Shown here: in pieces, positions 1-47,435 of the stretch
Position numbering within the stretch: position 1 is the stretch's first letter
Layout: the number at the start of each line of letters is the position of its first letter
IMG/VR virus record: IMGVR_UViG_3300028591_000080
Location: 159,745 to 223,744 of that record
Origin: a virus
Taxonomy: Duplodnaviria; Heunggongvirae; Uroviricota; Caudoviricetes
DNA: 64,000 nt
Reading direction: 5' to 3' (one strand)
Translations under genes and position numbers: made by a program
The notes under the pieces: generated by a model
The model's input: only the letters and a program-made list of their open reading frames with translations
Told to the model about the DNA's origin: nothing
The model's database searches: none

Positions 1-178
1 AAATTATCTTTATAGGCAACTAAAAATAATTAGTTAAATATATCCTAGCATTCGTCTATCATATCTAGAATTGCGTTTTAAGTTTTCCATAAGTGTTTTA
101 TCAAGTCAAAAATAAAACGTTCCTAAAACGTAAAAAATAGAGGCTATCGCTAACCTCTATAATTTATTAATAATTTAT

Positions 179-664: not shown

Positions 665-693
665 AATAATATTCCTCCTTTATTATTTACAAG

Positions 694-725
694 TATATTA
701 TACTACACTTTCAGTGATTTGTAAA
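694..725 (-). promoter_or_regulatory. sigma-A-type promoter for 179..664 (minus strand -35 TTTACA at 720-725, 17-bp spacer, -10 TATAAT at 697-702)
   Basis: Hexamers and spacing read directly from the sequence. Confidence 0.5.
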
Positions 726-736
726 TACTTTTTTAA

Positions 737-979
737 TTATTTTTTTAATTTCTTTTTTAATTCTTCTAATGAACCTCTGAAGATTGTTTCTTCTCCATAA
801 CAAGCAGAACCTTTACTAATCTTTAATGTAATGATTGGCTTATCATTTTCATCTAAGTCCATATAACTTACTAATGAACCATTCCAGCTTTGAATACTAG
901 CTCTCATACCAGAGTCTTTTGAACCACATCTTGTAGCTTCACCTCTACAACCTTGTAATGAACCATATAATTTACTCAT
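737..979 (-). CDS. hypothetical small protein (80 aa)
   Basis: ORF with GGAGG RBS; TAA stop. Confidence 0.5.
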   Translation of the reverse strand: MSKLYGSLQGCRGEATRCGSKDSGMRASIQSWNGSLVSYMDLDENDKPIITLKISKGSACYGEETIFRGSLEELKKKLKK

Positions 980-994
980 AATTTATTCCTCCTT

Positions 995-1234
995 TTAAAT
1001 CTGTTCTCCAGTTAAACTAGAAAAGTAAATAGTTTCCTTATCTTCATTCATATCATCAACACAATTGATAATTACATATTCATCATATTGATAAGGTTCT
1101 TGCTCCTTTGTGTTAACATATTCTACTAACCAGCTTCCACTCCACTTAGGCATTTCTTCAACTCTACTATTTAGTTCATCTAGAGTCTTTGATTGTGTTA
1201 AGTATTCCCAACAGTCATTAATATTATTAAACAT
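995..1234 (-). CDS. hypothetical small acidic protein (79 aa)
   Basis: ORF with GGAGG RBS. Confidence 0.5.
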   Translation of the reverse strand: MFNNINDCWEYLTQSKTLDELNSRVEEMPKWSGSWLVEYVNTKEQEPYQYDEYVIINCVDDMNEDKETIYFSSLTGEQI

Positions 1235-1252
1235 ATCTTTCTTCCTCCTTAA

Positions 1253-1456
1253 TTAAATATATCTGTAATAAATAAAACCGCTTCTATCTTTGTATTTTCC
1301 TACTTGCTTGAATGAATATCTATCGATAGAAAAACCGTTCCTATACGCTTCATTTTGGTCCTTCTTATTATCATTATCTAGAACTCTAATTAATTGAAGC
1401 TCTACTAGATTTCCATTTCTATCTGTATAAGATACATCAACTCTAAAATTACTCAT
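1253..1456 (-). CDS. hypothetical small protein (67 aa)
   Basis: ORF with GGAGG RBS at about 1466-1472. Confidence 0.45.
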   Translation of the reverse strand: MSNFRVDVSYTDRNGNLVELQLIRVLDNDNKKDQNEAYRNGFSIDRYSFKQVGKYKDRSGFIYYRYI

Positions 1457-1490
1457 AATTATATTCCTCCACTTATCTTTATCTACTATT

Positions 1491-1529
1491 ATTATATCAA
1501 AAAAAGGTATTTTTGTAAATACCTTTTTG
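1491..1529 (-). promoter_or_regulatory. promoter-in-terminator cassette (hairpin 1502-1529; minus-strand -35 TTTACA 1514-1519 in hairpin loop; 17-bp spacer; -10 TATAAT 1491-1496)
   Basis: Perfect palindrome aaaggtattt/aaataccttt followed by a T-run on the minus strand; hexamers read directly. Confidence 0.55.
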
Positions 1530-1537
1530 TAATTTTT

Positions 1538-1885
1538 TTAATCTAAATTAAATTGTTTTGCATACTTAAATGCATTCTCTATATTTTTACAGAATGTGTC
1601 TAGGTTAAATGCTTTATGCATACTGTCAATATTCTCTTCGCTCCAACCAATATATTCTCCGTCAGCGACTAAATCACTCCAGTCATATTCATAATCACAT
1701 TGTAATGAAGACTTATTGGTAGCCAACTTCGCACACAGTCCAAGTTCATCGCCAAGATTAGACATTACTAAATATATCGACTTACCTTCTCGATTAGTTC
1801 CTAGTTTTTTATAATAACAACCATCAAAATTAAAATTATAATTTTCTTTTAATACATTTTTAACAAATCTTCTAAAACACTCCAT
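1538..1885 (-). CDS. hypothetical protein (115 aa)
   Basis: ORF with TAA stop; start abuts the stop of the 1886..2122 gene. Confidence 0.5.
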   Translation of the reverse strand: MECFRRFVKNVLKENYNFNFDGCYYKKLGTNREGKSIYLVMSNLGDELGLCAKLATNKSSLQCDYEYDWSDLVADGEYIGWSEENIDSMHKAFNLDTFCKNIENAFKYAKQFNLD

Positions 1886-2122
1886 CTACTTGTCCTCCTT
1901 AACAAAATGTTCTGCAATGAATTTAGTACACATCCATACTCCACCATCTTCTCTAAGTTTACCAATAGCATATTCAATATCACCATCAGTTTCTACTCGT
2001 GTAGCATTGACTTTATACTTCTGTCCTTTACGACATACAACTCCCATGTTTGGATGAGTATAACCTTTAACACATACTAATCTTTCTCCAATATTCATAC
2101 CATAAAAATCTTCTTCATACAT
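1886..2122 (-). CDS. hypothetical protein (78 aa)
   Basis: ORF with GGAGG RBS. Confidence 0.5.
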   Translation of the reverse strand: MYEEDFYGMNIGERLVCVKGYTHPNMGVVCRKGQKYKVNATRVETDGDIEYAIGKLREDGGVWMCTKFIAEHFVKEDK

Positions 2123-2135
2123 AATTTTATTCCTC

Positions 2136-2345
2136 CTACTTAGATATAATAACTTCAGCGCCAGAACTTAATCTAAATATATTCTTACCAATATCTCCGG
2201 CTTCTTGGCGGTTTTCTCTAATTACACGCTTTGCGGTAGTTTTAGTTTCACCAGAGTCAATTGCTTCTTCAACCATATAATCTTCATATTCCTTTGAAGA
2301 GATTGGCATTGTCTTTCCTAATACTTGAATAAAATATTTAAACAT
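2136..2345 (-). CDS. hypothetical protein (69 aa)
   Basis: ORF with GGAGG RBS. Confidence 0.45.
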   Translation of the reverse strand: MFKYFIQVLGKTMPISSKEYEDYMVEEAIDSGETKTTAKRVIRENRQEAGDIGKNIFRLSSGAEVIISK

Positions 2346-2378
2346 AATTTAAGTCCTCCTCTATCTATCTTCACTATT

Positions 2379-2418
2379 ATTATATCACAAAAGAGGTATC
2401 TTGTAAATACCTCTTTGA
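2379..2418 (-). promoter_or_regulatory. promoter-in-terminator cassette (-10 at 2379-2384, -35 at 2402-2407, 17-bp spacer; hairpin aaagaggtatc/gatacctcttt)
   Basis: Read directly; same architecture as the other cassettes. Confidence 0.5.
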
Positions 2419-2427
2419 TAATTTTTT

Positions 2428-2754
2428 TTAAATCTCTATTTCGATTGTTTGTTCAGTTATAGTTAAATAAATATCAAGTTTCTGGTCTACATCTTCATTA
2501 TAATATTCAAAACTCTTTTCTAGTCCGTTATCACTTTCATAAGTATAACCATCAACAAAATCATGTTCGTCTTCTAAAAGATTTTCATTCTCTTCAATGA
2601 ATGCATCAAATCTTTCATCCATATATTTCTTTGCATCTTGAACAGTAGTAAATACCTTTGAACTAATATCTAAACAACCTTCATCAAGTCTTTCTTCACC
2701 GTCATAACTAACTTCATTAACTACATAAACTTTAATTTCATTCTTCATAAACAT
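2428..2754 (-). CDS. hypothetical acidic protein (108 aa)
   Basis: ORF with own cassette. Confidence 0.5.
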   Translation of the reverse strand: MFMKNEIKVYVVNEVSYDGEERLDEGCLDISSKVFTTVQDAKKYMDERFDAFIEENENLLEDEHDFVDGYTYESDNGLEKSFEYYNEDVDQKLDIYLTITEQTIEIEI

Positions 2755-2840
2755 TCTTCCTCTCTTTATCTTTATCTACATTAATTATACCACAAAAAAG
2801 GTATTTTGTAAATACCTTTTTAATAAATTTTTTATTTTTT

Positions 2841-3380
2841 TTATAAAGTTTTATATTTAACGACTATGTTATCAAAATATTCAGGGTCGTCTTCAGTTGG
2901 TGCAAACATTAATTCAACTCTTTCATTCTTATGAGTAGGCTTAGTTCTATTAAACTTCTTTAATGCTTCATCAAATGTTTGGAAAACTATTTCATTATAG
3001 TATTCTGTAGTTTCAGTATCATATTTTAACACATACCAATCTTTATCTTGATAACGATCCTCTACTGCGTGGTGAGCGGTTTCCTCTTCATAATTATCGA
3101 GACAATTAATCTCTAGACTTCTTTTAACCATCTTCTCATACTTCTTAAGTATAGTATTTACTAATTTTAGATCTGTCTTAAATTCATCTTCTGAATTATA
3201 TCTTGACTTAACTCCACGAACTTCATCTGTAAATACTGTAGTTATTCTTCCATCAGTTTCATCTTCAATTTCTTTAGTAAGGTTATCCCAACCTTCTTGT
3301 CCTAAAACATAAAACAAATGTTCTAATCTTATAATCTTATTATTATCAAATCTCTTGATACAATTATTCCAAGTTGACAT
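2841..3380 (-). CDS. hypothetical protein (179 aa)
   Basis: ORF with own cassette. Confidence 0.5.
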   Translation of the reverse strand: MSTWNNCIKRFDNNKIIRLEHLFYVLGQEGWDNLTKEIEDETDGRITTVFTDEVRGVKSRYNSEDEFKTDLKLVNTILKKYEKMVKRSLEINCLDNYEEETAHHAVEDRYQDKDWYVLKYDTETTEYYNEIVFQTFDEALKKFNRTKPTHKNERVELMFAPTEDDPEYFDNIVVKYKTL

Positions 3381-3384
3381 ATTA

Positions 3385-3717
3385 CTAATCCTCCAAATTC
3401 TCTTCTGTAATTTCTAATGTATATGAGTTCCAACCTTCAAGATGGCTCCACATATTTAAGTAGGCTTTAGTTGGTGTTAGATCTGTTTCTAGATAACCAT
3501 TATTTTCCTTATCATCTTCATAAGCTTTTAAATCATCTTCATCATCTAAATCATAACCAAGCTCTTCCATAATTTTTTCTTTATATAGGTCCTTAAGGCA
3601 TTCCTCGGCTTTTTCTTTTGAACCATAACAATAAACTTCAGTTCTTATTTCAGTGTCATCGATATGAGCACCTTCACAATTTGTTTCAACTTCTTTTACA
3701 ACGAATATTTTTTTCAT
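3385..3717 (-). CDS. hypothetical acidic protein (110 aa)
   Basis: ORF with GGAGG RBS. Confidence 0.5.
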   Translation of the reverse strand: MKKIFVVKEVETNCEGAHIDDTEIRTEVYCYGSKEKAEECLKDLYKEKIMEELGYDLDDEDDLKAYEDDKENNGYLETDLTPTKAYLNMWSHLEGWNSYTLEITEENLED

Positions 3718-3797
3718 AGATATATTCCTCCTTTATCTATCTTCATTATTATTATATCATAAAAAGGCTACTTTGTAAATAGCCTTTCGATATTTTT

Positions 3798-4388
3798 TTA
3801 AATTTTTTTAGAAATGCTGAAATGCTTTTTTTCTTCTTCTACAAATTCTGCACTGATTGTAGGGTAGCCATCTCCATCTTCATCCCACTCATCAGCAACT
3901 TTAACTAATCTATCTAGATCTTCTTCTTTTAGTTCACCTAATTCATATTCTGCATCCTCAAGATAAGCGTTCTTATAACAAATATTACCATCAACATTAA
4001 CTGAGTTCCACCAACAGTCAAGTAATTTACGTAAAGGCATTGTTTCACCAAGAGTCCAGGTTTTAGTATCTAAATCATAATAACAACCTTGATAATAATC
4101 ATCTCTTAAACCTTTTGTTTTAACCTTAGGCACCTCTTCAACTTCAACATCACCGAATTCTAAATTCTCTAGATATTCTGTAATATGTTGGTTATCATAA
4201 TTACCTACTAAAGTTATTGAAGTATCATTCATAGATCTATCATCAGGGTCGGAACCGTTAGTAAAATAAGCATTTTCTACTTCTTCTAATCCACAACTGA
4301 AAATTCTGATTTTTGTATTTCCACCGTATTCACTCTTAGCAATTTCTAGTCTTTTAATTAATTCATCTATAGTCATATTAGTTTCCAC
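3798..4388 (-). CDS. hypothetical protein (196 aa)
   Basis: ORF with own cassette. Confidence 0.5.
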   Translation of the reverse strand: METNMTIDELIKRLEIAKSEYGGNTKIRIFSCGLEEVENAYFTNGSDPDDRSMNDTSITLVGNYDNQHITEYLENLEFGDVEVEEVPKVKTKGLRDDYYQGCYYDLDTKTWTLGETMPLRKLLDCWWNSVNVDGNICYKNAYLEDAEYELGELKEEDLDRLVKVADEWDEDGDGYPTISAEFVEEEKKHFSISKKI

Positions 4389-4605
4389 CTCTCATTTGTC
4401 TTAACTTATATAATCTTCCTGGAATTACATAACGATGATCGCATTCATCGCAGCATCTAGCATCGATATTGAAAGTTGGTTCACAAACATTTCCATTTTC
4501 ATCTTTCCACATCGCACCAGCAGGGTTATTACCAAAGTAATTTGGACATCCTTCCTTTTTAATCTCATTACCACAAATACAACAGAATAATTTTTCTTTC
4601 TTCAT
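4378..4605 (-). CDS. small Cys-rich (zinc-binding-like) protein (75 aa)
   Basis: CCICGNE...CPNYFG...CCDECDH cysteine clusters; promoter with upstream phased A-tracts. Confidence 0.45.
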   Translation of the reverse strand: MKKEKLFCCICGNEIKKEGCPNYFGNNPAGAMWKDENGNVCEPTFNIDARCCDECDHRYVIPGRLYKLRQMRGGN

Positions 4606-4744
4606 AAAACATATCCTCCTTTGTTTTATCTACTATAATTATACCACAGTTTAATTAATATGTAAATACCTATTTTATATTTTTTTAAACTTTTTTAAGT
4701 TTTTAACTTTTTTAAACTTTTTAAATATCCCAACCAGGTTTATA

Positions 4745-4762
4745 GGTGACTAAAAATTTTTA
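4745..4762. repeat. perfect 18-bp palindrome gactaaaaatttttagtc, member of a 4-copy palindrome family
   Basis: Related copies at about 19-38, 15785-15804 and 16279-16300 (agtactaaaaacttttagtact). Confidence 0.5.
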
Positions 4763-4835
4763 GTCTTATTACTGAACCTAGAATCTCGGAGTCTATGCTT
4801 TAAAAAGTTAAAGTCAAATAAAATAAAAAAGCGAG

Positions 4836-5255
4836 TTATTCACTCGCTAATTCTCTATATGTATATCTATAAACTCCTGAGATTTCAAAGTATTCCTCTA
4901 ATGCACTATCTATCTCATCGTCAATAAGATCTCCAGATTTTAAATTTAGTTCAAATTCAAGAACTTGGTTTTCTACTTTACGTTGTAATTCCTCTTTTTC
5001 TGCTTCTGTATCATATTCGAAGAATGAAGGTTCTACGCTAATATTTCCAACTTGAACTTTAACTTTTCTTTCTTTAATCTCAGTAGTTATATCTGTCATG
5101 TCCATCTGTTTAATTATTGCACCTTCAGAAATTAGTTCTTCTAAAGTCATCTTATGTAATTTTTCTTTTGCCTCTTCTACCGAATTCGCCTCGATTTGAA
5201 GATTGCGAACCCACATTTCTAAATTAAAATCAAATTCTACTATCATAATTTCCAA
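4836..5255 (-). CDS. hypothetical acidic protein (139 aa)
   Basis: ORF; minus-strand terminator hairpin gcgagt/actcgc plus T-run at 4812-4834 immediately after it. Confidence 0.5.
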   Translation of the reverse strand: MEIMIVEFDFNLEMWVRNLQIEANSVEEAKEKLHKMTLEELISEGAIIKQMDMTDITTEIKERKVKVQVGNISVEPSFFEYDTEAEKEELQRKVENQVLEFELNLKSGDLIDDEIDSALEEYFEISGVYRYTYRELASE

Positions 5256-14203: not shown

Positions 14204-14746
14204 TTAAAAGAATTTTACAATCTTTTTTCCATGACTAGTGCAATGGAACTCTAGATCTTCGGCAGTCTTAGAGCCTTTCTTACAGAACCAAATAGGTCTA
14301 TCTTCACCTTCTCTAGTATAAGCTTGTAATATATCTTTATTAGCTTCCCATTCCTCTTTACTAAAATATCTACGCTTAGAGTGTGAGATATCTACTGTAA
14401 CTCTCTTTTTATTATTTAGTCTCTGAATGTGCTGTCCATATGCACGCTCAATTTGTCTTCCATACTTTTGCCATGTATAACCGTGATTATTACAACCAGG
14501 ACAAGTGTGTAGTAACTCATGGAAGATTGTATTTTCTATCTCTGAGTCTTCACTTAATAATCTACTAATAGAGATTACATGATCATCCTTACCTATATGC
14601 TGACAATAGCCATTACGTCTTTCTGCTGAGTCTGTCTTAAAAACTATATTCTTAGCTATTGGAATATTAATTGCTTCGCACTTGGCAATGCAATCTAACA
14701 CCATCTTTTCTATTTTATTATTTACATCTGATTTAAAAGCATACAT
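14204..14746 (-). CDS. SprT-like zinc metalloprotease-domain protein (180 aa)
   Basis: HExxH motif FHELLH followed by CPGC zinc-ribbon-like cysteines. Confidence 0.5.
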   Translation of the reverse strand: MYAFKSDVNNKIEKMVLDCIAKCEAINIPIAKNIVFKTDSAERRNGYCQHIGKDDHVISISRLLSEDSEIENTIFHELLHTCPGCNNHGYTWQKYGRQIERAYGQHIQRLNNKKRVTVDISHSKRRYFSKEEWEANKDILQAYTREGEDRPIWFCKKGSKTAEDLEFHCTSHGKKIVKFF

Positions 14747-15900: not shown

Positions 15901-16094
15901 TCTAATGACTTAGAAAAATACTGAAAAGTAAATTTACTAAGCAGCCATTCCTCCTGGCTGATAGAACTTATAAAACGACTAAGAGCGAGTGATCCTAAAG
16001 ATATAGAATTTTTCTTTATCTATAACTAATAGGTGACTCGGTACTAGTGGTACACTCTTAGGAAGTTTTTCATTCATCTTTCCTCCTTTCTATA

Positions 16095-16131
16095 GAACTA
16101 GACAATTCCTCCTGTCTAGTTCTTTTTTTTT
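16095..16131 (+). terminator. intrinsic terminator on the plus strand (gaactagaca/tgtctagttc stem, 9-nt T-run)
   Basis: Perfect 10-bp stem followed by tttttttttt, read directly. Confidence 0.55.
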
Positions 16132-16354
16132 CGCCTAGAAAATATTTAAAACCCTACCCGTAGCTAACTAAATTATTTTAGTACATTAGCTAGCTCGGTG
16201 GTCCGTGTCTCTCCAGGAAAAACACCAGCCGAATCCACTGTGATTTGGTCCGCTCATCCTCGCGCCAAAATAAAAAAGTACTAAAAACTTTTAGTACTCT
16301 TACTCTCGCGCACGCGCCTGTACACGCACCCAAAACACTGTAAATTGGAAAACG

Positions 16355-16500
16355 CTGTAATGTCCAAATCCCGGCAATTTGGCTGAAAACCAGGTGGATT
16401 CCAAAACCCGGCGATTTCGACCAGGCTAAAATGCAGTAAATTCCAAAACCCGGTAAATTCGGCCTATAAAAACAAAAATCCAAATCCCGGTAAATTCAGG
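16355..16500. repeat. four direct iteron-like repeats (tccaaaWcccggYRaWttYRg) at 35-41 bp spacing
   Basis: Copies at about 16364, 16399, 16440 and 16477; the local GC content is well above the rest of the window. Confidence 0.55.
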
Positions 16501-16514
16501 ACTCGGATTTTTTC

Positions 16515-17351
16515 TTACTCGTAAAAGTGTATGAAACCGTTAAATAAACCTATAAGATCTTTTATAGAATTTATTCTATTATTATAATTACTCCAGTCAA
16601 GCGTGTCGTCAGTATCTTTTAAATGAACAATACATCTAATACCTAGAGAATTAAATGATCTACTAATTCCACTTATACCATTGTCCGCCCATTCACTACC
16701 TTTAACTAATCCACTGTATGGAGCTTTATTATCTTCGTCAAATTCTCTTATAGCATCAGGTCTATAATAAGAATCTAAAATAAATTCTATTCTAATTAAA
16801 TCCTCTTTCAACCCACCAGCATTCTTTACATTAATATTTACTGTAGTACACTCTTCGTCAGTAGACACGCTAGTAATAAAAGCATTTATGTCATACTTGC
16901 TGGTAATTCTATTCTTATTAACTAATAACCACTTATTAAATAATCCTACAAAAGTATAAAAAACTTTTAGATAACATACGACCCATGCTGTGATGTTAAC
17001 CTCATGTCCGAAGGTTATATACTCGTCAGGAGTAATTCGCTGAGCCTTCATCATGTCCTCAGTAACTCTAGTCGGAAGAAGTATGTTAGCATCTACGTCA
17101 TGATCTACGCTCGAGTTAGCCACTGACTGTCCGTTGTTATACCAAGCGTCATAATCGCAAGTCATTCCCGGCAAGTAGTAATCGTTCTTATCTAAGTATT
17201 CATCGAGCGCTGCTAGGACCACGTCGTCCCAGTAGTCGAACATGACCTTCGGCAAGATGCAATCCTGCACGGAGTTGCTGAATCGAGCTCGCAATTCCTT
17301 GTACGGCATCACGTTTCCGGCGAATAGCTTGATGTAATTGTTATTGTTCAT
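16515..17351 (-). CDS. hypothetical protein (278 aa) with a GC-rich 5' third
   Basis: ORF; the composition shifts sharply (5' third GC-rich) against the 30 % background. Confidence 0.5.
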   Translation of the reverse strand: MNNNNYIKLFAGNVMPYKELRARFSNSVQDCILPKVMFDYWDDVVLAALDEYLDKNDYYLPGMTCDYDAWYNNGQSVANSSVDHDVDANILLPTRVTEDMMKAQRITPDEYITFGHEVNITAWVVCYLKVFYTFVGLFNKWLLVNKNRITSKYDINAFITSVSTDEECTTVNINVKNAGGLKEDLIRIEFILDSYYRPDAIREFDEDNKAPYSGLVKGSEWADNGISGISRSFNSLGIRCIVHLKDTDDTLDWSNYNNRINSIKDLIGLFNGFIHFYE

Positions 17352-17489: not shown

Positions 17490-18629
17490 TTACTTTATAT
17501 TCTGTATTATATAGTCTAAGTAAGGAGTTAGTAGTTCTTTATATTTATCTAGAGAGAATTTTGTTTGTAGTCTAGATATATCTACTGCTGTTTTTATTAA
17601 TAATTCTTTTTTTACTTCTAGTAGCTGTGCTTTAGTACTAAAACTAAAATATTTTCCGTAAGTATAGGTAGTTAGCCATAGCCAGTCTCCAGCCCACATT
17701 GTTATTGGTGTTTTTGCTGTTCTTCCTTCTTTAATACCTATACCAGGTTTACTTACTCAAGTATCTGTTATTTTACCTGTAATATCTTTTATTTCTACTA
17801 CGAAAGGTTGTTCGACATGTTTGTGGTGTATTGCTTCTATAAAATATATATTTATATCTACTTTTAATTTATTTATTGCTCCACCATTAACCGTCTTTAT
17901 TAACTGTAATACTGGTTTATAGAATATTAAAGAATTTTTTATTAGATTCTTTATAGCGAGTTTTACTGCTGTAAGTACTTGATCTCTCGGACTAACTCGA
18001 GTTAATACTATATCATTAAAACAGTTTATAAAGCGTTCTATCGTTTCCATCTTGTCGTCATTATCTATTCCGAAATAATATATTCTATCTTTTAATGGCC
18101 ATTTTTCCTGATTATGACGATAAGTTGCATGTTCTACTTCATCATTTCCAAGTTGAATATCTATATTATTTATTTCTATATTTGAGTCGGTAAAGAACTT
18201 ATTTAGCTCTGCATCATTTTTTAATAACTTACTTACTTTATCTCTAGTTTCGTACATCTCCATATAAGAATCATATAAAAGACCACTTACAATCCCATCA
18301 TATTCTTGTACTGTACGTTTTGATGACATTTCTACTTGATCAAGTAGTAAGCCATGTTGTTTTACATATGTATAAGAGTCTTTTTGAATAATTCTTACAT
18401 AGTTTAATATTTTTTGATTAACTTCTATTCCTAAGGTTATTTTTAATTCTACAGGGTGTCCTAAGAAATAAGTACTATATAAAAAGTATTGTGATATTAT
18501 TTCTAATTCTGTTAGGTTTCCTTCAGGAGATAGATCCATTTTTCCAGTTGTAAAAGCTGATTTTAGTTTTGATTGACTGAATACTTCTATCTTCATTTGT
18601 TTCTCCATGTGTCCTTCAGCGAAAGACAA
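17490..18629 (-). CDS. paralog-array member P1, about 379 aa, with one in-frame TGA read as Trp at 17757-17759
   Basis: Track ORFs 17757..18629 and 17490..17699 share a frame and are separated only by the TGA; the fused C-terminus (DKYKELLTPYLDYIIQNIK) matches the C-terminus of paralog P2 (NDYYDLLKPYVGQIINDL). Confidence 0.6.
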
Positions 18630-20836: not shown

Positions 20837-21913
20837 CTAATTTATTTGACTAAGTATTGGTTGTAATTCATTATACCAGCTTATGGCAGTTGTAGAATTA
20901 TTACCAATTAAACCACAAATGTTTGATAATATTTGTTTCTTATTCTTTCCGAGTTCTGTTACTGATGTAAATTGTACTCCAAATACCCAAGAAGATTTAA
21001 TCGTAGTAATTATTCTACCTGTAGCATCGATTTCAAAATCTACTAAAGATATGAGTTTAGATGAACGATATTTATCTGATAAGAAATTAAAATAAACATG
21101 GTATTTATTTAATTGACCAGAATCTTTAGTAATATCTATAAATAATGATAAATTAAAATTAGAATCAGAAGAAGTTAAATTTTTATTAGTAATGATTTTG
21201 TCTACAATCTTTTTTGAAGCTGGCCATAATGCAAATAATAAAGTTGTAGCATTTATATATGCACTTGATAAAGCAGATTTGAATTGTGGTTGATTTAATA
21301 ATTCATCTTCTGGTAAATCAAATTTATAACCATTAGCTTTCCAAGCATTTACATCTTTAAATAGATTATTTAGTCCAGAATAAAGGCCTTGAGATTGATT
21401 TAGATTAAGTTGAATATCTGTAATTCCGATTTTATTATCTACAAAAAATTGTTTACTTCTAGCTGTATCTATTGTTATTTTTCTAATATCTAATGCTTTA
21501 GTATTAATTTCTGAAGCTTTAAAGTCAAAATACTTTTTAGTATATTGATATAAGTCAGAAACTGTAACTCTTTGAGAATCAAAACTTAATATTTCATTTA
21601 TACCATTTTGGACTGGATGCTTATTTTTAGAACTTGGATTATCTATCGCATTAAATGCTGCCTCTACTACTCTTAAAGCTCCTTTAGTATAAGCCTTATC
21701 ATATTTATGAGCTCCACTATGTTTATCTCCAAACTCCATTAATGCATTTTTATTTACTGTAAATAAGCATGCCCAAGCAAATAGATCTAATAATTTTTGA
21801 GGGTTCATATTATAATTTCTTGCTGCTCCATCAAAAATTTGTTTAGATAATTTGAATTGAAAGTCAGGACTTCCTTCATAACTATAAGCAATATTTGTTA
21901 TATAAGTACTCAT
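20837..21913 (-). CDS. hypothetical protein, possible distant member of the same array (358 aa)
   Basis: Same size, tightly packed in the same operon; similarity weak. Confidence 0.45.
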   Translation of the reverse strand: MSTYITNIAYSYEGSPDFQFKLSKQIFDGAARNYNMNPQKLLDLFAWACLFTVNKNALMEFGDKHSGAHKYDKAYTKGALRVVEAAFNAIDNPSSKNKHPVQNGINEILSFDSQRVTVSDLYQYTKKYFDFKASEINTKALDIRKITIDTARSKQFFVDNKIGITDIQLNLNQSQGLYSGLNNLFKDVNAWKANGYKFDLPEDELLNQPQFKSALSSAYINATTLLFALWPASKKIVDKIITNKNLTSSDSNFNLSLFIDITKDSGQLNKYHVYFNFLSDKYRSSKLISLVDFEIDATGRIITTIKSSWVFGVQFTSVTELGKNKKQILSNICGLIGNNSTTAISWYNELQPILSQIN

Positions 21914-22181
21914 TCTATATTTCTCCTTAAATTATTTTTATCTCAAATAATGGATTTATTATTTTTTCTATACTACTATTTCCTAAATATCTTATTGGAT
22001 AATCAATAGCTCTTTTAAGCATATAGTGAGAGATAGAAATCCTTGATAAATTATTATTAGCATCTATATTATTATACACATTTTTTGCTCTTGGATCTTC
22101 TTTTACAACGAAAATTATATCACAATCTGCAGTCTCTAATTTAGATGTATCTTGATCTAAGCTATTGATACGAAAACTAGA

Positions 22182-22922
22182 TTTAACTCTTAAATAATTT
22201 TCACCATTTTTAGAAGGTTCTATTGAATAATATCATTGAGTTGTAAAATATTCATAATCTAGTTTCTTTTTCTTTCCGTTCTTAGTTGTTATTATTTCTA
22301 GTCCATGTATAAAATTATTTATTAATACATTTGATTTATATGCTGCGATCATAAAAATATCGTTTGTCATATCTGCATTTATAGAACAAGAGGCTTCCGA
22401 AATAGAACTTAATTTTCCATCTAAAACATCAAAAAATAATTGACGAACATCTTTACTATCTGACCTATCATTCCAAAGTCTAACAGGATTTTTAAACTTT
22501 ATTATTTTTAATTTATCTAAATTTTTTATTGCAGTAATATATTTATTAGAGTTCTTATTCATAGTATAATTTTTCTCTATATTACTTGTAACACTTTTAT
22601 AAACATCATTTCCTAATTTTTCAAGATCTCAAATTCTTCATCTTGAGTTAGGGCTTTGAACATGGCAAATATAACTTGAAACAATTTCATTCATATCTCT
22701 AGCAGCTTGCATACATGGAAGATATACTTTTTCATAGTAGTCCATATTACAAGTATTATAAAAAGTAACTAAAGAATAAAAGATAATTCTTAAAACCATT
22801 TCACTACCTTTATTAGGAATTCTAGATAGTTTTTTATATCCATTTGCTCAGTTACTAAGGTCTGTTACTAATGATACACTACGGTTTCCATCATTTGGAA
22901 GTCTAATTTGTATAACAGCCAT
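22182..22922 (-). CDS. hypothetical protein, about 246 aa, with 4 in-frame TGA codons
   Basis: Extends track ORF 22233..22562 upstream to an ATG with AGGAG RBS and downstream through its TGA to a TAA; Trp-plausible contexts (LSNWANGY, NSRWRIWDLEK). Confidence 0.5.
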
Positions 22923-22999
22923 TTTTAACTCCTTTAAGATTTTTAAACTTTTTATATATTTTAAATACTTTACAAAGTTTAAATATTTTAAATACTTTT

Positions 23000-23480
23000 A
23001 TTTTTTTACTAATTTTCAACCTAAGTCTGTGTAGAACTTAATTTTATCTATAAAAACTTCTCTAGTTTTACCGTCACGTTCTAATAAGACTCAGTTGCTA
23101 GGATCATTTAATCTTTTCATTCTAGCTTTTTCTGGATCTTTATCATTTAAGTATTCTCTTAATTCTTTAGCTTCAAAGTCTCTTCTATAAGTTAATTTAG
23201 AATCGTTTTCTCTACCACCATAAGATTGATTATAACCAACTAAAGGATTACGTGAATCGAATTTTTTAATTCAATATTGTTCTCTTTCATCTAATTGTTC
23301 TTGAGATGAGCATCTTTCTATTAATTCTACTATGAAGTTTTCTCTTCCATACTTTAACATAGCAGCTTGAATTAATGTTCCAGAACCTTTATATTTTTTA
23401 GTAAACTTTGCTCTAGCATGTTGACCAATATAAATTTTCTTATTTATTAGGTTTGTAGTTTTATAAATATAACCTCACAT
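23000..23480 (-). CDS. GIY-YIG homing endonuclease, about 160 aa, with 4 in-frame TGA codons
   Basis: GYIYKTTNLINKKIYIGQ matches the GIY-YIG motif; the conserved Trp of the ExxxWI block (EQYWIKKF, compare I-TevI ENFWIKEL) is encoded by TGA; GGAGAG RBS. Confidence 0.6.
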
Positions 23481-23489
23481 AAAACTCTC

Positions 23490-23774
23490 CTAAGATTTTA
23501 TTCATGTTCTTTCATCATCAGCTTCTTCATAATCATAATCAGGATCGCGCCTAGGAGCGTTTTGTTCTTTAGGTGTATAAATTAATTCATTCTTTGTTTC
23601 GGACAAATAGGCGCCGTCTATATAAATAAGTTGATGAAATCTATTACGACTTAATCTTCATCTAATATTATTAAAAGCTTTTTGAGGAGAGTCTGCAGTC
23701 GTGCCAACGTTTACTCAAGCTATTTCTCTATCATCTTTATCAAAAACAGGTCCATTGTATGTATAAGCACTCAT
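23490..23774 (-). CDS. hypothetical protein, about 94 aa, with 3 in-frame TGA codons
   Basis: ATG with RBS; reading through TGA gives EIAWVNVG, NIRWRLS, ERTWIKS; ends at TAG. Confidence 0.45.
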
Positions 23775-23852
23775 ACTAAATCTCCATAATAATTAAATAA
23801 TCAATACAGATAATTTAGCAATTATAAAAAGAAAAGTAAGGATCAAATGTCC

Positions 23853-24893
23853 TTACTTTTTATCTCTTAATGTTTCAGCTAATTCCAATACAAGCTTTTC
23901 TGTCTTTTCCCAACCAAGACATGGATCTGTGATTGATTTACCATATACTCCACCGTCTGGCTTTTGACAACCATCTTCAATATAAGATTCAATCATTAGT
24001 CCTTTAACTAATTTCTTAATATCTGGATTGTGGTTCATACTATATAAAACTTGTTTAGCAATTCTGATTTGTTCTTCAAATTTCTTATTTGAATTAGCAT
24101 GATTACAATCTACGATACAAGCTGGATTTTTTAGTTCAGTTTGCTTATATAATTCATCTAATAATTCTAGATCTTCATAGTTGTAATTAGGTCTATTCTC
24201 ACCATGCTTGGTATTATAACCTCTTAAAATACTATGTGCATATTCATTACCTTTAGATTCGACTTCCCAATTTCTATAAATAAATGTATGAGGATGTTGA
24301 GCAGCTTTAATTCCATTAATCATTACTGATAGATTTCCGGATGTAGGATTTTTCATACCAACAGGAATATTTAAACCAGAAGCTACTAATCTATGTTCTT
24401 GGTTTTCAACTGATCTTGCACCGACAGCTACATAACTTAACAAATCATTTATATATCTATGGTTTGCTGGATATAATAATTCATCTGCAGTTGAGAAACC
24501 TGTTTCTTCTAAAACCTTCATATGTAATCGTCTTACAGCAATAATACCTTCAAGCATATCAGGTTTATCTGTAGGATTTGGTTGGTGTAATAGTCCTTTA
24601 TAACCATCACCTGTAGTTCTTGGTTTATTCGTATAAACTCTTGGAACTATAAATATTACATCTTTAACTTTTTCATAAAGCTTTCTTAATCTCTTACAAT
24701 AATCTAATACTGCGTCTTCTCTATCGGCAGAACAAGGACCTATAATTAATAATAATTTATTACTCTTACCACTAATAATATTTTTTACTTCGTTATCATT
24801 AGCTTCCTTTACTTTAACTAAATCTTCTCTTAATGGAAACATCTCTTTAATTTCCATTGGTATTGGAAGCTTACGTTTAAATTCCATATTCAT
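23853..24893 (-). CDS. 3-deoxy-7-phosphoheptulonate (DAHP) synthase, class I alpha (AroG-like)
   Basis: Collinear with E. coli AroG: LLLIIGPCS, KPRTT, GARSVENQEHR, CIVDCNHANS, GKSITDPCLGWE. Confidence 0.8.
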   Translation of the reverse strand: MNMEFKRKLPIPMEIKEMFPLREDLVKVKEANDNEVKNIISGKSNKLLLIIGPCSADREDAVLDYCKRLRKLYEKVKDVIFIVPRVYTNKPRTTGDGYKGLLHQPNPTDKPDMLEGIIAVRRLHMKVLEETGFSTADELLYPANHRYINDLLSYVAVGARSVENQEHRLVASGLNIPVGMKNPTSGNLSVMINGIKAAQHPHTFIYRNWEVESKGNEYAHSILRGYNTKHGENRPNYNYEDLELLDELYKQTELKNPACIVDCNHANSNKKFEEQIRIAKQVLYSMNHNPDIKKLVKGLMIESYIEDGCQKPDGGVYGKSITDPCLGWEKTEKLVLELAETLRDKK

Positions 24894-28117: not shown

Positions 28118-28555
28118 TTATTTTCTATTTCTTTTATTTATATATAACTTTTTATCTGCATCTAAAAGAGCTTCATCAAAAGAATTATATATAGTTTTAA
28201 TTGAAGTTCCAAAACTGAAAGTAAAATTAGTTAATGTTTTAAATTCTCTTTGATATAGTTCAAAATTAATTTTTTCTTTATGTATAATAATGAATTCATC
28301 TCCACCATACCTACATAAATAATTAATCGCTGGGTCTTGTTTTAAAACATCAATAAATTGTTTTAAAGCTCGGTCTCCAGCGACATGTCCTAAATCATCA
28401 TTTATCTTTTTAAAATTATCAATATCAATAACTGAAATATATACTTGTTTATTTTCTAATTTATTTTTTAGTTTATTTTCAATAAAATTTCTGTTATAAC
28501 AATCACACAGTAAATCGTAATAGGCTAATTTTTTATATTTAAAATAATGGATCAT
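28118..28555 (-). CDS. minimal GGDEF-domain protein (putative diguanylate cyclase-like, 145 aa)
   Basis: DIDNFKKINDDLGHVAGDRAL and RYGGDEFII match the GGDEF signature blocks. Confidence 0.6.
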   Translation of the reverse strand: MIHYFKYKKLAYYDLLCDCYNRNFIENKLKNKLENKQVYISVIDIDNFKKINDDLGHVAGDRALKQFIDVLKQDPAINYLCRYGGDEFIIIHKEKINFELYQREFKTLTNFTFSFGTSIKTIYNSFDEALLDADKKLYINKRNRK

Positions 28556-32880: not shown

Positions 32881-34002
32881 TTAATTGAACTCTAGTTTAA
32901 TTGCATATAAGATTGTATTTGTTGTAGACTTTCGGATAATATGTTCACCAGCTTGGAAGTTTAGTATGGTTACAATTCCATTTTCATCAACTGTTTTCTT
33001 TACGTTATCAACAACAATTGCTTTTGCTGGAGTAACATGTAATGTCAATGTAGATTCAGCACCAGTTTCAAAAGTTACCATTGAGAATCTTGTATCAGAA
33101 CCTTCCATCTTTAAACCTGTTGTATAATTAGTTCCATCGATAGTTATTGGATTATTTTCATAAGAACCATGAGCGATAAATTTATTATCTGATGGAGCTT
33201 GATTGAATGTACAAATTGTATCAGTATCAATCTTTACGCTACGTTCAATTTCTATTTCATTCATCCTTTCAATACAATTTATTAGTTTATCATGATTTGA
33301 AATTCGTGCATGAACATATTCCCAAGCAGCAGTTGTAACTGCATCTAATTGATCAACATATTCATAAGTTAAATTATCTGGATCTGGTAATGCATTAATT
33401 AAATTATATACAGCTTGAGCTTCAGTGTCTTCACTTTGTTCTGGAGCATAGGTTCCAGTTACACCTAAAATACTTACACCTTCTTTAATATTTTCAGCTT
33501 TAATTGCTGAGTCAATAGCACTTGTTACAGCTTTAACCGTTACAGTTCCTAATCCATCATAATTCTTATCAAATGTTATTTCTTGGTTATTTAATGTAGG
33601 ATTAACAGTTTTATCTTGAAGAACAACTTCAGCAGGTACTGGCTGAACTCCTGAATCCTTTACAACCTCCCAACCATCTTCATCATAAATATAGGCTTTA
33701 CTTTTATCTATTTCAACAAATATAGAACCTAATCCAATATTATATTGATTACCTATCTTAGTTGGTTTTTCATCTGTACTTAATCCAAAGAAACAAAAAA
33801 CATCACGAGCGATAGGAGTATAGAAATCAAGAATTGGACCTGTGTACTTAATCCACTCACTTGTTTCTTCATTAAAAAAATATCTATCTTGAGTATCTGT
33901 TTCAAACACCATAGAACCAGTTTTAATATTTTTAGTTGGTTTAATGTCTTGTGATGTTAAATTATAACCATTAACACCTTCTTGAGGAACATATCTAATC
34001 AT
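32881..34002 (-). CDS. hypothetical protein (373 aa)
   Basis: ORF. Confidence 0.5.
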   Translation of the reverse strand: MIRYVPQEGVNGYNLTSQDIKPTKNIKTGSMVFETDTQDRYFFNEETSEWIKYTGPILDFYTPIARDVFCFFGLSTDEKPTKIGNQYNIGLGSIFVEIDKSKAYIYDEDGWEVVKDSGVQPVPAEVVLQDKTVNPTLNNQEITFDKNYDGLGTVTVKAVTSAIDSAIKAENIKEGVSILGVTGTYAPEQSEDTEAQAVYNLINALPDPDNLTYEYVDQLDAVTTAAWEYVHARISNHDKLINCIERMNEIEIERSVKIDTDTICTFNQAPSDNKFIAHGSYENNPITIDGTNYTTGLKMEGSDTRFSMVTFETGAESTLTLHVTPAKAIVVDNVKKTVDENGIVTILNFQAGEHIIRKSTTNTILYAIKLEFN

Positions 34003-46624: not shown

Positions 46625-47435
46625 CTTAATTTCCAAGTTTACTTAGTAATGAATCTAAAACTATTTCTTTAATTAATGGCATTAGTTCCATCATATAGTC
46701 ATCTTCTATTTTATCATTAGCTCATTTAATTTCTAAGTGTCCACCACATTCTTTTGGACATGGTGCATCATGCATTATAATAGCTACAATTACTTTAACC
46801 ATTGTCATATCTTTAAATTTAAGAAATGAGCGTGGTGTTTTTTCATATAATTCTATTTCATCAATGTCGCCATTTGAACATCCGATAGTAAGAGCTACTT
46901 CATCTTTATTTCTTGCTGCATAGATAGCATTTTCTACAGCACCTGGATGAGCTTGAATTGGATAAGTTAATCCTAAAATTCGAGTAATTTCTGCTGCGTA
47001 TTTTAGTCAACATTCTCCATGACCATCATCAGCTCTATAATAATCTTCTATCTCTTTTGTTGGAAATACTTTTTCACCGTGTTCTTCATCTGCTCAAATG
47101 TTTAGACGTTTATCATTTAACATTTCAACATCTACTAAATAATGACAATATTCATGTGCAAAAGTATTTTCAAATAATTCTTCCAATCCGTTCTTTAATA
47201 CATATTGACTAACTTCTATTTGAATCATAGCCTCATGATGTAATACGTCTCTACCAAATAAAGTACTACCTAAAGTATTGGTTGAATCATATCCTTTAAG
47301 TGATACTCCTAATAAACTAGGATTTGGTTTTCAATCTGGATGAGCTTTAGATATTTTAAATAAAACTTGATTAGCAATAAACATTGCTAAATCTTCTTCC
47401 ATATAATCATTTTTATCTTCAAATAAATTAACCAT
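46625..47435 (-). CDS. HExxH zinc-metallopeptidase-like protein, about 269 aa, with 4 in-frame TGA codons
   Basis: ATG with AAGGAG RBS 9 nt upstream; FAHEYCHYLVD HExxH motif; all four Trp positions (HPDWKPN, LNIWADE, GECWLKY, EIKWAND) are TGA; ends at TAA; invisible to the standard-code ORF track. Confidence 0.55.

What the first reader, a model, noticed from the sequence alone, without database searches (positions are those of the whole stretch)
22182..23774. Operon of three TGA-containing genes, including a GIY-YIG homing endonuclease whose conserved Trp is TGA
The ORF track shows a 1.6-kb apparent coding desert. Reading the minus strand with TGA as a sense codon yields three contiguous genes with good RBSs (GGAGAG and AAAGGAG). 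The middle one starts MWGYIYKTTNLINKKIYIGQ, which is the GIY-YIG signature, and has EQYWIKKFDS matching the ExxxFWIKEL block of I-TevI. That W is a TGA, and all four Trp codons in this gene are TGA. This is the strongest single piece of evidence that TGA means Trp rather than Gly or stop. The third gene extends track ORF 22233..22562 in both directions.
Basis: seen in the sequence. Interest (0 to 1): 0.85.

Follow-up and report, generated by a model that had tools for sequence, protein, structure and literature searches.

The report
TGA-coded homing endonuclease cassette, recoded phage
A large uncultured phage that reads the stop codon TGA as tryptophan carries a three-gene block, centred on a mobile GIY-YIG DNA-cutting enzyme, that spells nearly every tryptophan as TGA while about 95 neighbouring genes avoid TGA; the case is real and clean, but the pattern has already been described for stop-codon-recoded gut phages.

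Summary
On the minus strand, with TGA read as sense, there are three adjacent genes: gA 23490-23774 (94 aa), gB 22998-23480 (160 aa) and gC 21927-22922 (331 aa). gB is a GIY-YIG endonuclease: it passes the Pfam and TIGR01453 cut-offs and models with an I-TevI fold. TGA means Trp: a 73%-identical orthologue has TGG at all four TGA positions, and more distant homologues have W, Y or F there, never Gly. All three genes are under purifying selection in the table-4 frame (dN/dS 0.09, 0.013, 0.29). No group I intron is present, so the enzyme is free-standing. It sits in different contexts in at least three related phages. gA and gC are orphans. The window is the early/auxiliary arm of a large low-GC phage in which TGA is never a stop yet is avoided: 6 TGA to 219 TGG outside the cassette, against 11 to 1 inside (p=6e-14). 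The likeliest reading is a phage that switches the code during infection, so these genes are translated only after the switch. Borges et al. reported the same TGA preference for an endonuclease family in code-4 Agate phages. This is a new member of a known kind, of moderate interest.

The parts
23832..23860 (-). Intrinsic terminator after the DAHP synthase gene. It marks the upstream boundary of the cassette's transcription unit.
   Evidence: 11-bp stem, 7-nt loop and a T-run. The 78-nt spacer to gA is 98.7% identical in the diverged copy L014.
23490..23774 (-). gA, a 94-aa orphan protein with an acidic C-terminus. TGA at codons 20, 39 and 91. Its TAG stop overlaps the Shine-Dalgarno sequence of gB.
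   Evidence: Table-4 ORF; GGAG ribosome-binding site; dN/dS 0.09 against L014. Only a 95% copy exists among 5.8 billion proteins. No Pfam, PHROG, NCBIfam or PADLOC hit.
22998..23480 (-). gB, a 160-aa free-standing GIY-YIG homing endonuclease. The catalytic domain spans roughly residues 1-95, followed by a small C-terminal domain of two helices, a beta-hairpin and a helix. All four Trp codons are TGA, at codons 2, 70, 130 and 155.
   Evidence: PF01541, TIGR01453 and PHROG 314 hits; I-TevI sequence alignment; model and fold matches; TGG at orthologous codons; dN/dS 0.013.
22956..22995 (-). Local direct repeat, 2 x GTATTTAAAATAT spaced 27 nt apart, in the 75-nt gB-gC spacer. Role unknown; it may be a promoter or operator for gC.
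   Evidence: Two exact copies here and only two 1-mismatch matches elsewhere in the window, which is not enriched over chance. The spacer is 96% identical in L014.
21927..22922 (-). gC, a 331-aa orphan protein. TGA at codons 25, 95, 98 and 230, and one TGG at codon 150. Its stop lies 13 nt from the start of the next gene.
   Evidence: Table-4 ORF; AAAGGAG ribosome-binding site; dN/dS 0.29. No homologue beyond 99% and 86% copies in 5.8 billion clusters and 1.84 billion representatives. The structure model is unusable, pLDDT 48.
46626..47435 (-). gD, the only other TGA-rich gene in the window: a 269-aa SprT-like metalloprotease homologue with an HEYCH motif, 4 TGA and 0 TGG. It belongs to the same TGA-dependent gene class but is not part of the cassette.
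   Evidence: PF10263 30 bits against a cut-off of 25.6.
16474..16512 (-). Next strong intrinsic terminator downstream on the coding strand, and the probable end of the transcription unit that starts at gA.
   Evidence: 16-bp stem plus a T-run. The genes between it and gC (358, 350, 376, 379 and 278 aa) are closely spaced, mostly 3-13 nt apart.

Best explanation
The window is the early/auxiliary-gene arm of a large, low-GC (28%), probably T4-like, uncultured phage that decodes TGA as tryptophan (genetic code 4). gB is a free-standing GIY-YIG homing endonuclease of the I-TevI/Seg type. It moves between related phages by cutting endonuclease-free alleles and being copied in during repair. gA and gC are lineage-specific orphan genes that travel with it or flank its insertion site. 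The three genes can only be translated when TGA is read as Trp. Under the standard code, translation would stop at codon 20 of gA, codon 2 of gB (an ATG-TGA start-stop) and codon 25 of gC. The other ~95 genes in the window strongly avoid TGA as a sense codon and also never use it as a stop. The most likely setting is therefore a phage that infects a standard-code host (Firmicutes-like, using Shine-Dalgarno sites) and switches the cell to code 4 during infection. Early genes stay readable in both codes, while the endonuclease cassette, and the SprT-like gD, stay silent until the switch. The TGA richness arises because A/T mutation pressure on the third base of Trp codons goes unopposed in genes that are not needed before the switch, and selection to keep a nuclease silent or scarce early may reinforce it. 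What is shown: the three ORFs, GIY-YIG membership, TGA = Trp, purifying selection, the free-standing state, different genomic contexts in different phages, and the codon-use dichotomy. What is inferred: the homing activity and its target, the standard-code host and mid-infection switch, the timing of expression, and any selective value of the TGAs.
For: ORFs and ribosome-binding sites. GIY-YIG. I-TevI E75, W78 and N90 align to E67, W70 (TGA) and N84, and E67 and N84 are invariant across 24-25 homologues. TGA = Trp: TGG at all four positions in P0002 and a mix in P0005 and others. Purifying selection against the diverged copy L014: dN/dS 0.09, 0.013 and 0.29, with all 11 TGAs conserved. Free-standing: no Rfam family in the region or window, and spacers of only 9 and 75 nt. 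Mobility: the enzyme is 67-73% identical in phages whose shared core proteins are 28-70% identical, and it sits in three different contexts (DAHP synthase/gA | HE | gC; ligase/321-aa gene | HE; homologue of w_46066 | HE), while gA and gC are absent from the other phages. Further copies lie in structural-gene contexts, and L042 holds a decayed copy. Genome-wide code: 67 TAA and 22 TAG stops; every table-11 ORF of at least 40 aa that ends in TGA runs on in frame for 88-236 codons. Dichotomy: cassette 11 TGA to 1 TGG against 6 to 219 elsewhere, Fisher p = 5.5e-14. The cassette's 92% TGA matches the A-ending share of its Lys, Glu, Gln, Leu and Arg codon pairs (82-100%), whereas 3-5% in the rest falls far below the 74% expected (p around 1e-112 to 1e-118). 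The cassette's other synonymous codon choices are typical of this phage, z = -0.74 to +0.81. A Shine-Dalgarno-like motif precedes 72 of 101 genes against 10% background. The ligase's nearest GenBank relatives are Bacillota phages. Precedent: Borges et al. (bioRxiv 10.1101/2021.08.26.457843) describe code-4 phages of standard-code hosts in animal guts, with TGA depleted in early and replication genes, and found a 'group I intron endonuclease' family to be one of three families in Agate phages that prefer TGA over TGG. The TGA bias recurs in this endonuclease family in independent phages: TGA/TGG counts of 5/0, 3/1, 2/0 and 2/2 against mostly TGA-free neighbours.
Against: No endonuclease-free 'empty site' was found: all 8 contigs inspected that carry the identical DAHP synthase, and the diverged L014, have the cassette. 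The cassette apparently shares a transcription unit with downstream TGA-free genes, so any gating would act on translation only. In the related phage L018 the portal, protease and major capsid genes have no TGA, so TGA richness is not a general mark of late genes in this group. That fits 'TGA is tolerated only in low-expression or dispensable genes' at least as well as a timer. The canonical catalytic Arg (I-TevI R27) cannot be placed with confidence in this subfamily.
Confidence: 0.7

Rival explanations
1. The host uses code 4 natively (a Mollicutes-like or other UGA-Trp bacterium). TGA is Trp throughout infection and there is no switch. On this view the cassette is TGA-rich simply because it was recently imported from a gene pool that prefers TGA.
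For: TGA is never a stop in the window, and no code-change genes or suppressor tRNA were found. Synonymous divergence from L014 is lower in the cassette (dS 0.20-0.30) than in the adjacent DAHP synthase 3' end (0.60; p = 9e-4), consistent with more recent exchange of the block. One family hit lies in an Acholeplasmatales-binned rumen MAG.
Against: In a native code-4 setting TGA should be close to neutral, yet about 95 genes hold it at 3-5% of Trp codons against 74% expected from comparable A/G-ending pairs. Borges et al. report that about 90% of genes carry in-frame TGA in phages of natively recoded hosts; here it is 6 of 101. The cassette's other codon choices and GC3 cannot be told apart from the rest of the phage, so there is no sign of foreign origin apart from the Trp codon. 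Shine-Dalgarno use is strong.
Confidence: 0.2
2. The setting is the same recoded phage, but the TGAs have no regulatory role. TGA is decoded inefficiently by a suppressor tRNA, so it survives only in genes that are dispensable, selfish or needed in small amounts (the endonuclease and orphans). On this view the TGAs are a by-product of A/T drift and not a timer.
For: The cassette's TGA share (92%) equals the neutral expectation. gC evolves fast (dN/dS 0.29) and both flanking genes are orphans. In L018 the highly expressed late structural genes avoid TGA while the endonuclease does not.
Against: gB is under very strong purifying selection (dN/dS 0.013), so it is not a decaying passenger. A TGA at codon 2 is conserved in four of the five copies that have Trp there. 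Drift cannot be separated from selection with these data.
Confidence: 0.35
3. gB is an intron-encoded endonuclease inside a group I intron that splits one gene into gA and gC, as the family label TIGR01453 suggests and as Borges et al. assumed for their family.
For: gB passes the TIGR01453 'group I intron endonuclease' cut-off. gA and gC flank it on the same strand, and both are orphans.
Against: No group I intron or any other Rfam family is found, even at E <= 1, in 21500-24300. Only 9 nt and 75 nt of non-coding sequence flank gB. gA ends in its own stop and gC has its own ribosome-binding site and ATG. Other copies of the enzyme sit between unrelated complete genes.
Confidence: 0.03
4. The region is a non-coding desert or a set of dead pseudogenes, with TGA acting as a stop; or TGA encodes Gly (code 25) or selenocysteine.
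For: Standard-code gene callers leave the region fragmented.
Against: The open frames are improbable by chance, dN/dS is well below 1 in all three genes, and all TGAs are conserved. TGG occupies the orthologous positions and none has Gly. With eleven TGAs at Trp or aromatic columns and no Rfam hit for a SECIS-type element, selenocysteine is implausible.
Confidence: 0.01

Closest known systems
The 'group I intron endonuclease' gene family of TGA-recoded Agate phages (Borges et al., bioRxiv 10.1101/2021.08.26.457843; published in Nature Microbiology 2022)
   Same: A GIY-YIG/TIGR01453-type endonuclease sits among early genes of a code-4 gut or rumen phage and prefers TGA over TGG for Trp, while neighbouring early genes avoid TGA. 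Those authors proposed that the in-frame TGAs delay production of the endonuclease until the code switch.
   Different: No intron is present here, so the enzyme is free-standing. Membership of this phage in the Agate, Jade or Sapphire clades was not tested, because no terminase sequence was available. Here the two flanking orphan genes share the TGA richness, and the first TGA is at codon 2.
I-TevI (phage T4 td intron endonuclease; PDB 1LN0, 1MK0)
   Same: It has the same GIY-YIG catalytic domain. HMMER aligns residues 4-84 to I-TevI 4-90, with E67 matching E75, W70 matching W78 and N84 matching N90. The model superposes at rmsd 2.7 A with TM-score 0.68, normalised to the target. From general knowledge (not tested here), I-TevI translation is also held back until late in infection, in that case by mRNA structure.
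   Different: I-TevI is intron-encoded, 245 aa long, and has a long linker, a zinc finger and a C-terminal helix-turn-helix DNA-binding domain. gB is 160 aa, free-standing, and has a different small C-terminal domain with no PDB match. The position equivalent to R27 is unclear.
T4-type Seg (SegA-G) free-standing GIY-YIG homing endonucleases
   Same: They are free-standing genes placed between genes of large lytic phages, they vary in location among relatives, and they have an N-terminal GIY-YIG domain. There is a weak PF19835 SegE_GIY-YIG hit, and Seg-like proteins appear among the fold matches.
   Different: The PF19835 score is below its cut-off (18 against 25 bits). The best-fitting family is TIGR01453/PHROG 314. 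Seg proteins are written in the standard code.
Block-wise dual coding in crAss-like, Lak, Jade and Sapphire phages (the problem addressed by Mgcod; Borges et al.)
   Same: Within one genome, some gene blocks are readable in the standard code and others need the reassigned stop codon.
   Different: Most described cases reassign TAG to Gln and involve structural or lysis modules. Here the TGA-dependent unit is a small selfish-element cassette inside the early arm.

Membership tests
GIY-YIG nuclease superfamily (Pfam PF01541) | Profile match above the curated gathering score | tested here: met
   24.3 bits against a cut-off of 22.6, residues 3-76. PHROG 314 'homing endonuclease' at 1.2e-31.
GIY-YIG nuclease superfamily (Pfam PF01541) | GIY and YIG motifs on the first two beta-strands | tested here: met
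   G3-Y4-I5-Y6 and Y17-I18-G19. G3, Y4, Y6, Y17 and G19 are invariant in 25 homologues. The model has strands at 4-10 and 16-21.
GIY-YIG nuclease superfamily (Pfam PF01541) | Catalytic Glu (I-TevI E75) and structural Asn (N90) | tested here: met
   E67 and N84 align to E75 and N90 and are invariant in the family alignments.
GIY-YIG nuclease superfamily (Pfam PF01541) | Catalytic Arg (I-TevI R27) after the YIG motif | tested here: inconclusive
   The aligner places a gap opposite R27. R23 and K25 are not conserved, and the subfamily's invariant block there is Y30-x-G32-S33-G34.
GIY-YIG nuclease superfamily (Pfam PF01541) | The alpha/beta GIY-YIG fold | tested here: met
   Model pLDDT 91.6. The only PDB matches with E < 0.01 are I-TevI 1MK0 and 1LN0 (TM-score 0.63-0.69 normalised to the target, rmsd 2.7-4.0 A). 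There are 210 viral GIY-YIG matches.
Homing endonuclease (functional class) | Patchy distribution and different genomic positions among related genomes, with the endonuclease more conserved than its flanks | tested here: met
   Three different contexts at 67-73% identity, against 28-70% for shared core proteins. gA and gC are absent from the other phages. More contexts appear, and a decayed copy in L042.
Homing endonuclease (functional class) | Presence/absence polymorphism at the insertion site (an endonuclease-free allele that carries the target) | tested here: inconclusive
   All 8 inspected contigs with the identical flank, and the diverged L014, carry the cassette. Scans of IMG/VR and JGI contigs found no relatives of the flanking genes.
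Homing endonuclease (functional class) | Site-specific double-strand cleavage of the cognate endonuclease-free allele | not testable with these tools
   Needs purified protein and substrate DNA.
Group I intron-encoded endonuclease (NCBIfam TIGR01453 label) | Profile match above the curated cut-off | tested here: met
   61.5 bits against 56.05.
Group I intron-encoded endonuclease (NCBIfam TIGR01453 label) | The ORF lies inside a group I intron that interrupts a host gene | tested here: not met
   No Intron_gpI or other Rfam match at gathering score in the window, or at E <= 1 in 21500-24300. Spacers are only 9 and 75 nt. gB is therefore filed as free-standing, not intron-encoded.
Stop-codon-recoded (code 4, TGA to Trp) phage | In-frame TGA at positions that are Trp in homologues | tested here: met
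   Four of four positions in gB; TGG in orthologue P0002.
Stop-codon-recoded (code 4, TGA to Trp) phage | TGA is not used as a terminator | tested here: met
   67 TAA, 22 TAG and no genuine TGA stops in the window. Every table-11 ORF of at least 40 aa that ends in TGA continues for 88-236 codons. One possible exception lies outside the window: a TGA followed three codons later by TAG in L015.
Stop-codon-recoded (code 4, TGA to Trp) phage | Uneven, module-wise use of the recoded codon, with early genes compatible with the standard code | tested here: met
   17 sense TGAs in 6 of 101 genes, 15 of them in four genes.
Stop-codon-recoded (code 4, TGA to Trp) phage | A phage-encoded TGA suppressor tRNA and/or RF1 or TrpRS | tested here: inconclusive
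   There is no tRNA in the window or in the roughly 10 kb (L015) and 6 kb (L020) beyond its ends. The related phage L009 encodes a class-Ib (Trp/Tyr type) aminoacyl-tRNA synthetase, PF00579. Borges et al. detected suppressors in only 35% of code-4 phages.

The most novel reading that the evidence does not exclude
The in-frame TGAs are a selected translational lock on a selfish nuclease, not drift. When this endonuclease family enters a code-switching phage, its Trp codons are repeatedly converted from TGG to TGA, including an ATG-TGA 'start-stop' at codon 2. The nuclease and its hitch-hiking neighbours then cannot be made until the phage has reprogrammed decoding. On this reading the genetic-code switch doubles as a containment or timing system for mobile elements, playing the same role that mRNA-structure control plays for I-TevI in T4. 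The phage-encoded tmRNA found nearby could belong to the same reprogramming toolkit.
Probability: 0.3. Interest if true: 0.6.

Novelty: new member of a known kind. Interest (0 to 1): 0.35.

Why it matters
For annotation, standard-code gene callers turn this 1.85-kb block into a 'coding desert'. The whole phage needs table 4, and the tidy standard-code look of about 95% of its genes hides that. For biology, the locus is an unusually clean internal control for code-switching models. Within one genome and one strand, Trp is 92% TGA in four genes and under 1% in the rest, while all other codon choices are the same. The same endonuclease also exists as an all-TGG orthologue in a relative. That pair gives a ready-made experiment on whether recoded stop codons time or throttle the expression of selfish nucleases. 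It does not reveal a new principle, because TGA-to-Trp recoding in gut and rumen phages and the TGA preference of an endonuclease family have both been published.

Tried and rejected
1. Group I intron: Rfam at gathering score on the whole window, and at E <= 1 on 21500-24300, found nothing relevant.
2. Close relatives in GenBank phages: megablast found none. By protein, the ligase's best hits are Bacillota phages at under 40% identity.
3. Empty-site search: IMG/VR scans with both flanking proteins and a JGI metagenome scan found no relatives.
4. Suppressor tRNA: ARAGORN found none in the window or in any of the 11 fetched loci scanned.
5. Function of gA and gC: Pfam, PHROGs, NCBIfam and PADLOC gave nothing. 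Two protein-database searches returned only near-identical copies. The AlphaFold model of gC was unusable at pLDDT 48, so no fold search was run on it. gA and gC have no counterpart beside the endonuclease copy in L009/L011 and none among the L009 and L013 ORFs that match window genes.
6. T4-type late promoter TATAAATA: not enriched (24 found against 26 expected), and none lies upstream of the cassette genes on the coding strand. No sigma-70-like site was called in the DAHP-gA spacer.
7. The GTATTTAAAATAT repeat as a genome-wide regulatory motif: not enriched.
8. Foreign origin judged by codon usage: rejected, because the cassette is typical of the phage apart from the Trp codon.
9. Higher identity of gB to L014 as a sign of recent homing: rejected as such. 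gB's dS (0.20) is in the same range as gA's and gC's (0.30, 0.27), so the difference comes from purifying selection. The whole cassette does, however, have lower dS than the DAHP synthase flank.
10. Environment of origin: accession searches in the literature gave no usable label. A sheep-rumen origin is my recollection of the 'SHIW'/SRR8736xx series and is unverified.
Full report
OBSERVATION

Under the standard table the 1.9 kb between the DAHP synthase gene (23853-24893) and a 358-aa gene (20837-21913) holds only ORFs of 34-109 aa. With TGA as sense it holds three genes:
- gA, 23490-23774, 94 aa, 3 TGA and 0 TGG.
- gB, 22998-23480, 160 aa, 4 TGA and 0 TGG.
- gC, 21927-22922, 331 aa, 4 TGA and 1 TGG.

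Each has a Shine-Dalgarno sequence (GGAG, GGAGAG, AAAGGAG). The gA TAG stop overlaps the gB ribosome-binding site. The one error is the lower coordinate: gC does not end near 22182 but continues in frame to 21927. Frames this long stay open by chance with p = 6e-4, 3e-6 and 3e-12.

IDENTITY OF gB

The table-4 protein passes Pfam GIY-YIG (24.3 against 22.6 bits) and NCBIfam TIGR01453 (61.5 against 56.05), and it matches PHROG homing-endonuclease families down to 1e-31. HMMER aligns residues 4-84 to the I-TevI catalytic domain, with E67 matching E75, W70 matching W78 and N84 matching N90. An AlphaFold model built on 25 homologues has pLDDT 91.6. Its only significant PDB matches are I-TevI 1MK0 and 1LN0, and 210 viral GIY-YIG proteins match it. 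The C-terminal 60 residues form a small helix and beta-hairpin domain with no solved relative. The I-TevI R27 equivalent could not be placed.

MEANING OF TGA

In a 24-sequence alignment, the four TGA columns hold W in close homologues and W, Y or F in distant ones, never G. Codon-level comparison settles it. The orthologue P0002 (73% identical, locus L013) has TGG at all four positions. P0005 (67%, L009) has TGA, TGA, TGA, TGG. Further copies mix TGA, TGG and aromatic codons. A copy of the whole cassette that is 3.5-10% diverged across the three genes (L014) keeps all 11 TGAs and gives Nei-Gojobori dN/dS of 0.09 (gA), 0.013 (gB) and 0.29 (gC) under table 4. So all three are real, translated genes, and TGA is Trp, not Gly or stop.

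FREE-STANDING AND MOBILE

Rfam finds no group I intron or any other family here, and only 9 and 75 nt of spacer flank gB. The endonuclease occurs in related phages that share core proteins at 28-70% identity, but in different places: after DNA ligase and a 321-aa gene in L009, and after a homologue of window gene 46066-46614 in L013. In L018 a copy lies between a T4-type prohead protease and the gp23-type capsid gene. gA and gC are absent from those phages. A decayed copy lies in a rumen MAG contig. This is how a free-standing homing endonuclease behaves. No endonuclease-free allele of this locus was found, however, and cleavage cannot be tested here. gA and gC are true orphans with no family or defence-system match, and no usable model could be made for gC.

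CONTEXT

The window is about 28% GC and almost wholly minus-strand coding. It encodes ATP-dependent DNA ligase, RNA ligase, CCA-adding enzyme, NAPRTase, NUDIX, dCMP deaminase, DAHP synthase, an SPFH protein and a GGDEF protein. That is the early/auxiliary arm of a large phage; contigs in the 0.2-1 Mb class exist. Nothing close is in GenBank or IMG/VR, and the ligase's nearest relatives are Bacillota phages at under 40% identity.

TGA is never a terminator. There are 67 TAA and 22 TAG stops, and every 'TGA-ending' ORF continues for 88-236 codons. Yet TGA is strongly avoided as a sense codon. I discounted four 5'-proximal TGAs that lie just upstream of an in-frame ATG start, three of which have a clear ribosome-binding site. 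That leaves 17 sense TGAs in 6 of 101 genes, 15 of them in gA, gB, gC and the SprT-like gD (46626-47435). The cassette has 11 TGA to 1 TGG against 6 to 219 elsewhere (p = 5.5e-14). The cassette's 92% matches the A-ending share of its Lys, Glu, Gln, Leu and Arg pairs (82-100%), which is the neutral expectation. The 3-5% in the rest lies far below the 74% expected there (p around 1e-112 to 1e-118). Other synonymous choices in the cassette are typical of the phage, so apart from the Trp codon there is no sign of foreign origin. A Shine-Dalgarno-like motif precedes 72 of 101 genes.

MECHANISM

The simplest reading is the published model of Borges et al.. The phage infects a standard-code host, keeps its early genes readable in both codes, and later imposes TGA = Trp. 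Genes that carry TGA, here with first TGAs at codons 20, 2 and 25, are silent until then. Those authors reported that a 'group I intron endonuclease' family is one of only three families in code-4 Agate phages that prefer TGA to TGG. The same bias recurs in this family in independent phages examined here, for example 5 TGA and 0 TGG in L019, where six of the seven neighbouring genes have no TGA.

Several points remain unproven for this genome. No suppressor tRNA, RF1 or TrpRS was seen in the roughly 80 kb available. The host is unknown. The cassette seems to share a transcript with downstream TGA-free genes: there is a terminator at 23860-23832 upstream, and the next strong one is at 16512-16474. 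In L018 the capsid-module genes lack TGA, so a reading in which TGA is tolerated only in low-expression or selfish genes is a serious variant. A natively code-4 host is less likely, given how strongly TGA is avoided.

COMPARISON AND VERDICT

gB is a member of the GIY-YIG superfamily and of the TIGR01453 sequence family, but it is not intron-encoded. Functionally it resembles the T4 Seg enzymes. The coding pattern matches the precedent in Agate phages. The finding is therefore real and correctly interpreted, apart from one boundary and the operon's extent, and it is a new member of a known kind. Its value lies in being a clean illustration and a practical test case, because TGA and TGG orthologues of one endonuclease are both available. 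It is not a new principle.

Noticed in passing
window 46626-47435 (-): A fourth TGA-rich gene lies far from the cassette. It encodes a 269-aa SprT-like metalloprotease homologue (HEYCH motif; PF10263 30 bits) with 4 TGA and 0 TGG. It sits between the CCA-adding enzyme gene and gene 46066-46614, whose homologue lies directly upstream of the endonuclease in L013. A second, TGA-free gene with a weak SprT-like hit is at 14204-14746.
   Followed up: partly
L020:983-1357 (+), contig ena:ERZ27256846:k141_4022077, about 5 kb beyond the window's high end: The phage encodes a full-length tmRNA (Rfam RF00023, 86 bits against a gathering score of 47; ARAGORN tag peptide AKSIFNKIANFFRGFGAQRVAALA). It is on a contig that carries the exact 892-aa helicase of window 60288-62966. 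Ribosome rescue could matter if the code switch makes host mRNAs read through their TGA stops.
   Followed up: partly
window 16190-17351 (-), flanked by terminators at 16512-16474 (-) and 16094-16123 (+): Two genes (97 and 278 aa) have codon usage far from the rest of the phage (leave-one-out z = -7.0 and -3.3; GC3 0.45 and 0.37 against a mean of 0.18). They look like a recent foreign insertion.
   Followed up: no
window 17490-18629 (-) codon 291; window 48758-49546 (-) codon 99: These are the only other genuine sense TGAs in the window, one in each of two genes that otherwise use TGG. Standard-code callers split both genes; for example, L001-aa and 69-aa pieces.
   Followed up: partly
window 23490-23504 (gA codons 91-95); L015:13240-13455: gA's last TGA is followed three codons later by its TAG stop. 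A small early gene just outside the window has the same layout, with TGA at codon 68 and TAG at codon 72. This may be a tandem 'TGA then back-up TAG' ending that gives nearly the same protein in both codes.
   Followed up: no
L015:15928-17423 and L016:16471-17986 (beyond the window's low end): A stretch of about 1.5 kb has no gene called under either code and no tRNA or Rfam hit. Only short ORFs dense in TGA are present.
   Followed up: no
L009 (related code-4 phage): 1-4898: There is a cluster of tRNA-related genes next to the ligase and endonuclease: a class-Ib (Trp/Tyr type) aminoacyl-tRNA synthetase (PF00579), Thg1, Tpt1 (PTS_2-RNA), KTI12 and AAA_28. The synthetase could be the TrpRS of a code-change module like the one described for Jade phages. 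From the endonuclease's upstream neighbour onward, TGA becomes common.
   Followed up: no
L018:10811-10987: A related T4-like code-4 phage encodes an ArfA (alternative ribosome-rescue factor A, PF03889) homologue near its capsid module. Its portal, prohead protease and gp23-type capsid genes contain no TGA, while the endonuclease between them has two.
   Followed up: no
window 32881-34002 (-) compared with L001:142-2000: Strains differ upstream of the SPFH gene. The window and L002-L004 carry a 373-aa CBM77-domain gene, whereas L001 carries a ribosomal protein L9 homologue (148 aa) plus small ORFs at that position.
   Followed up: no
window 28118-28555 (-): The phage encodes a 145-aa GGDEF-domain protein (PF00990, from precomputed annotation of the identical gene in L001-L007). 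It may interfere with host c-di-GMP signalling.
   Followed up: no
L042:3001-3540 (sheep-rumen 'Bacilli' MAG contig JAFXWB010000002.1): A decayed copy of the endonuclease is 73% identical over the first 30 residues and then broken by many TAA and TAG stops. This is the expected end state of a homing-endonuclease life cycle.
   Followed up: partly
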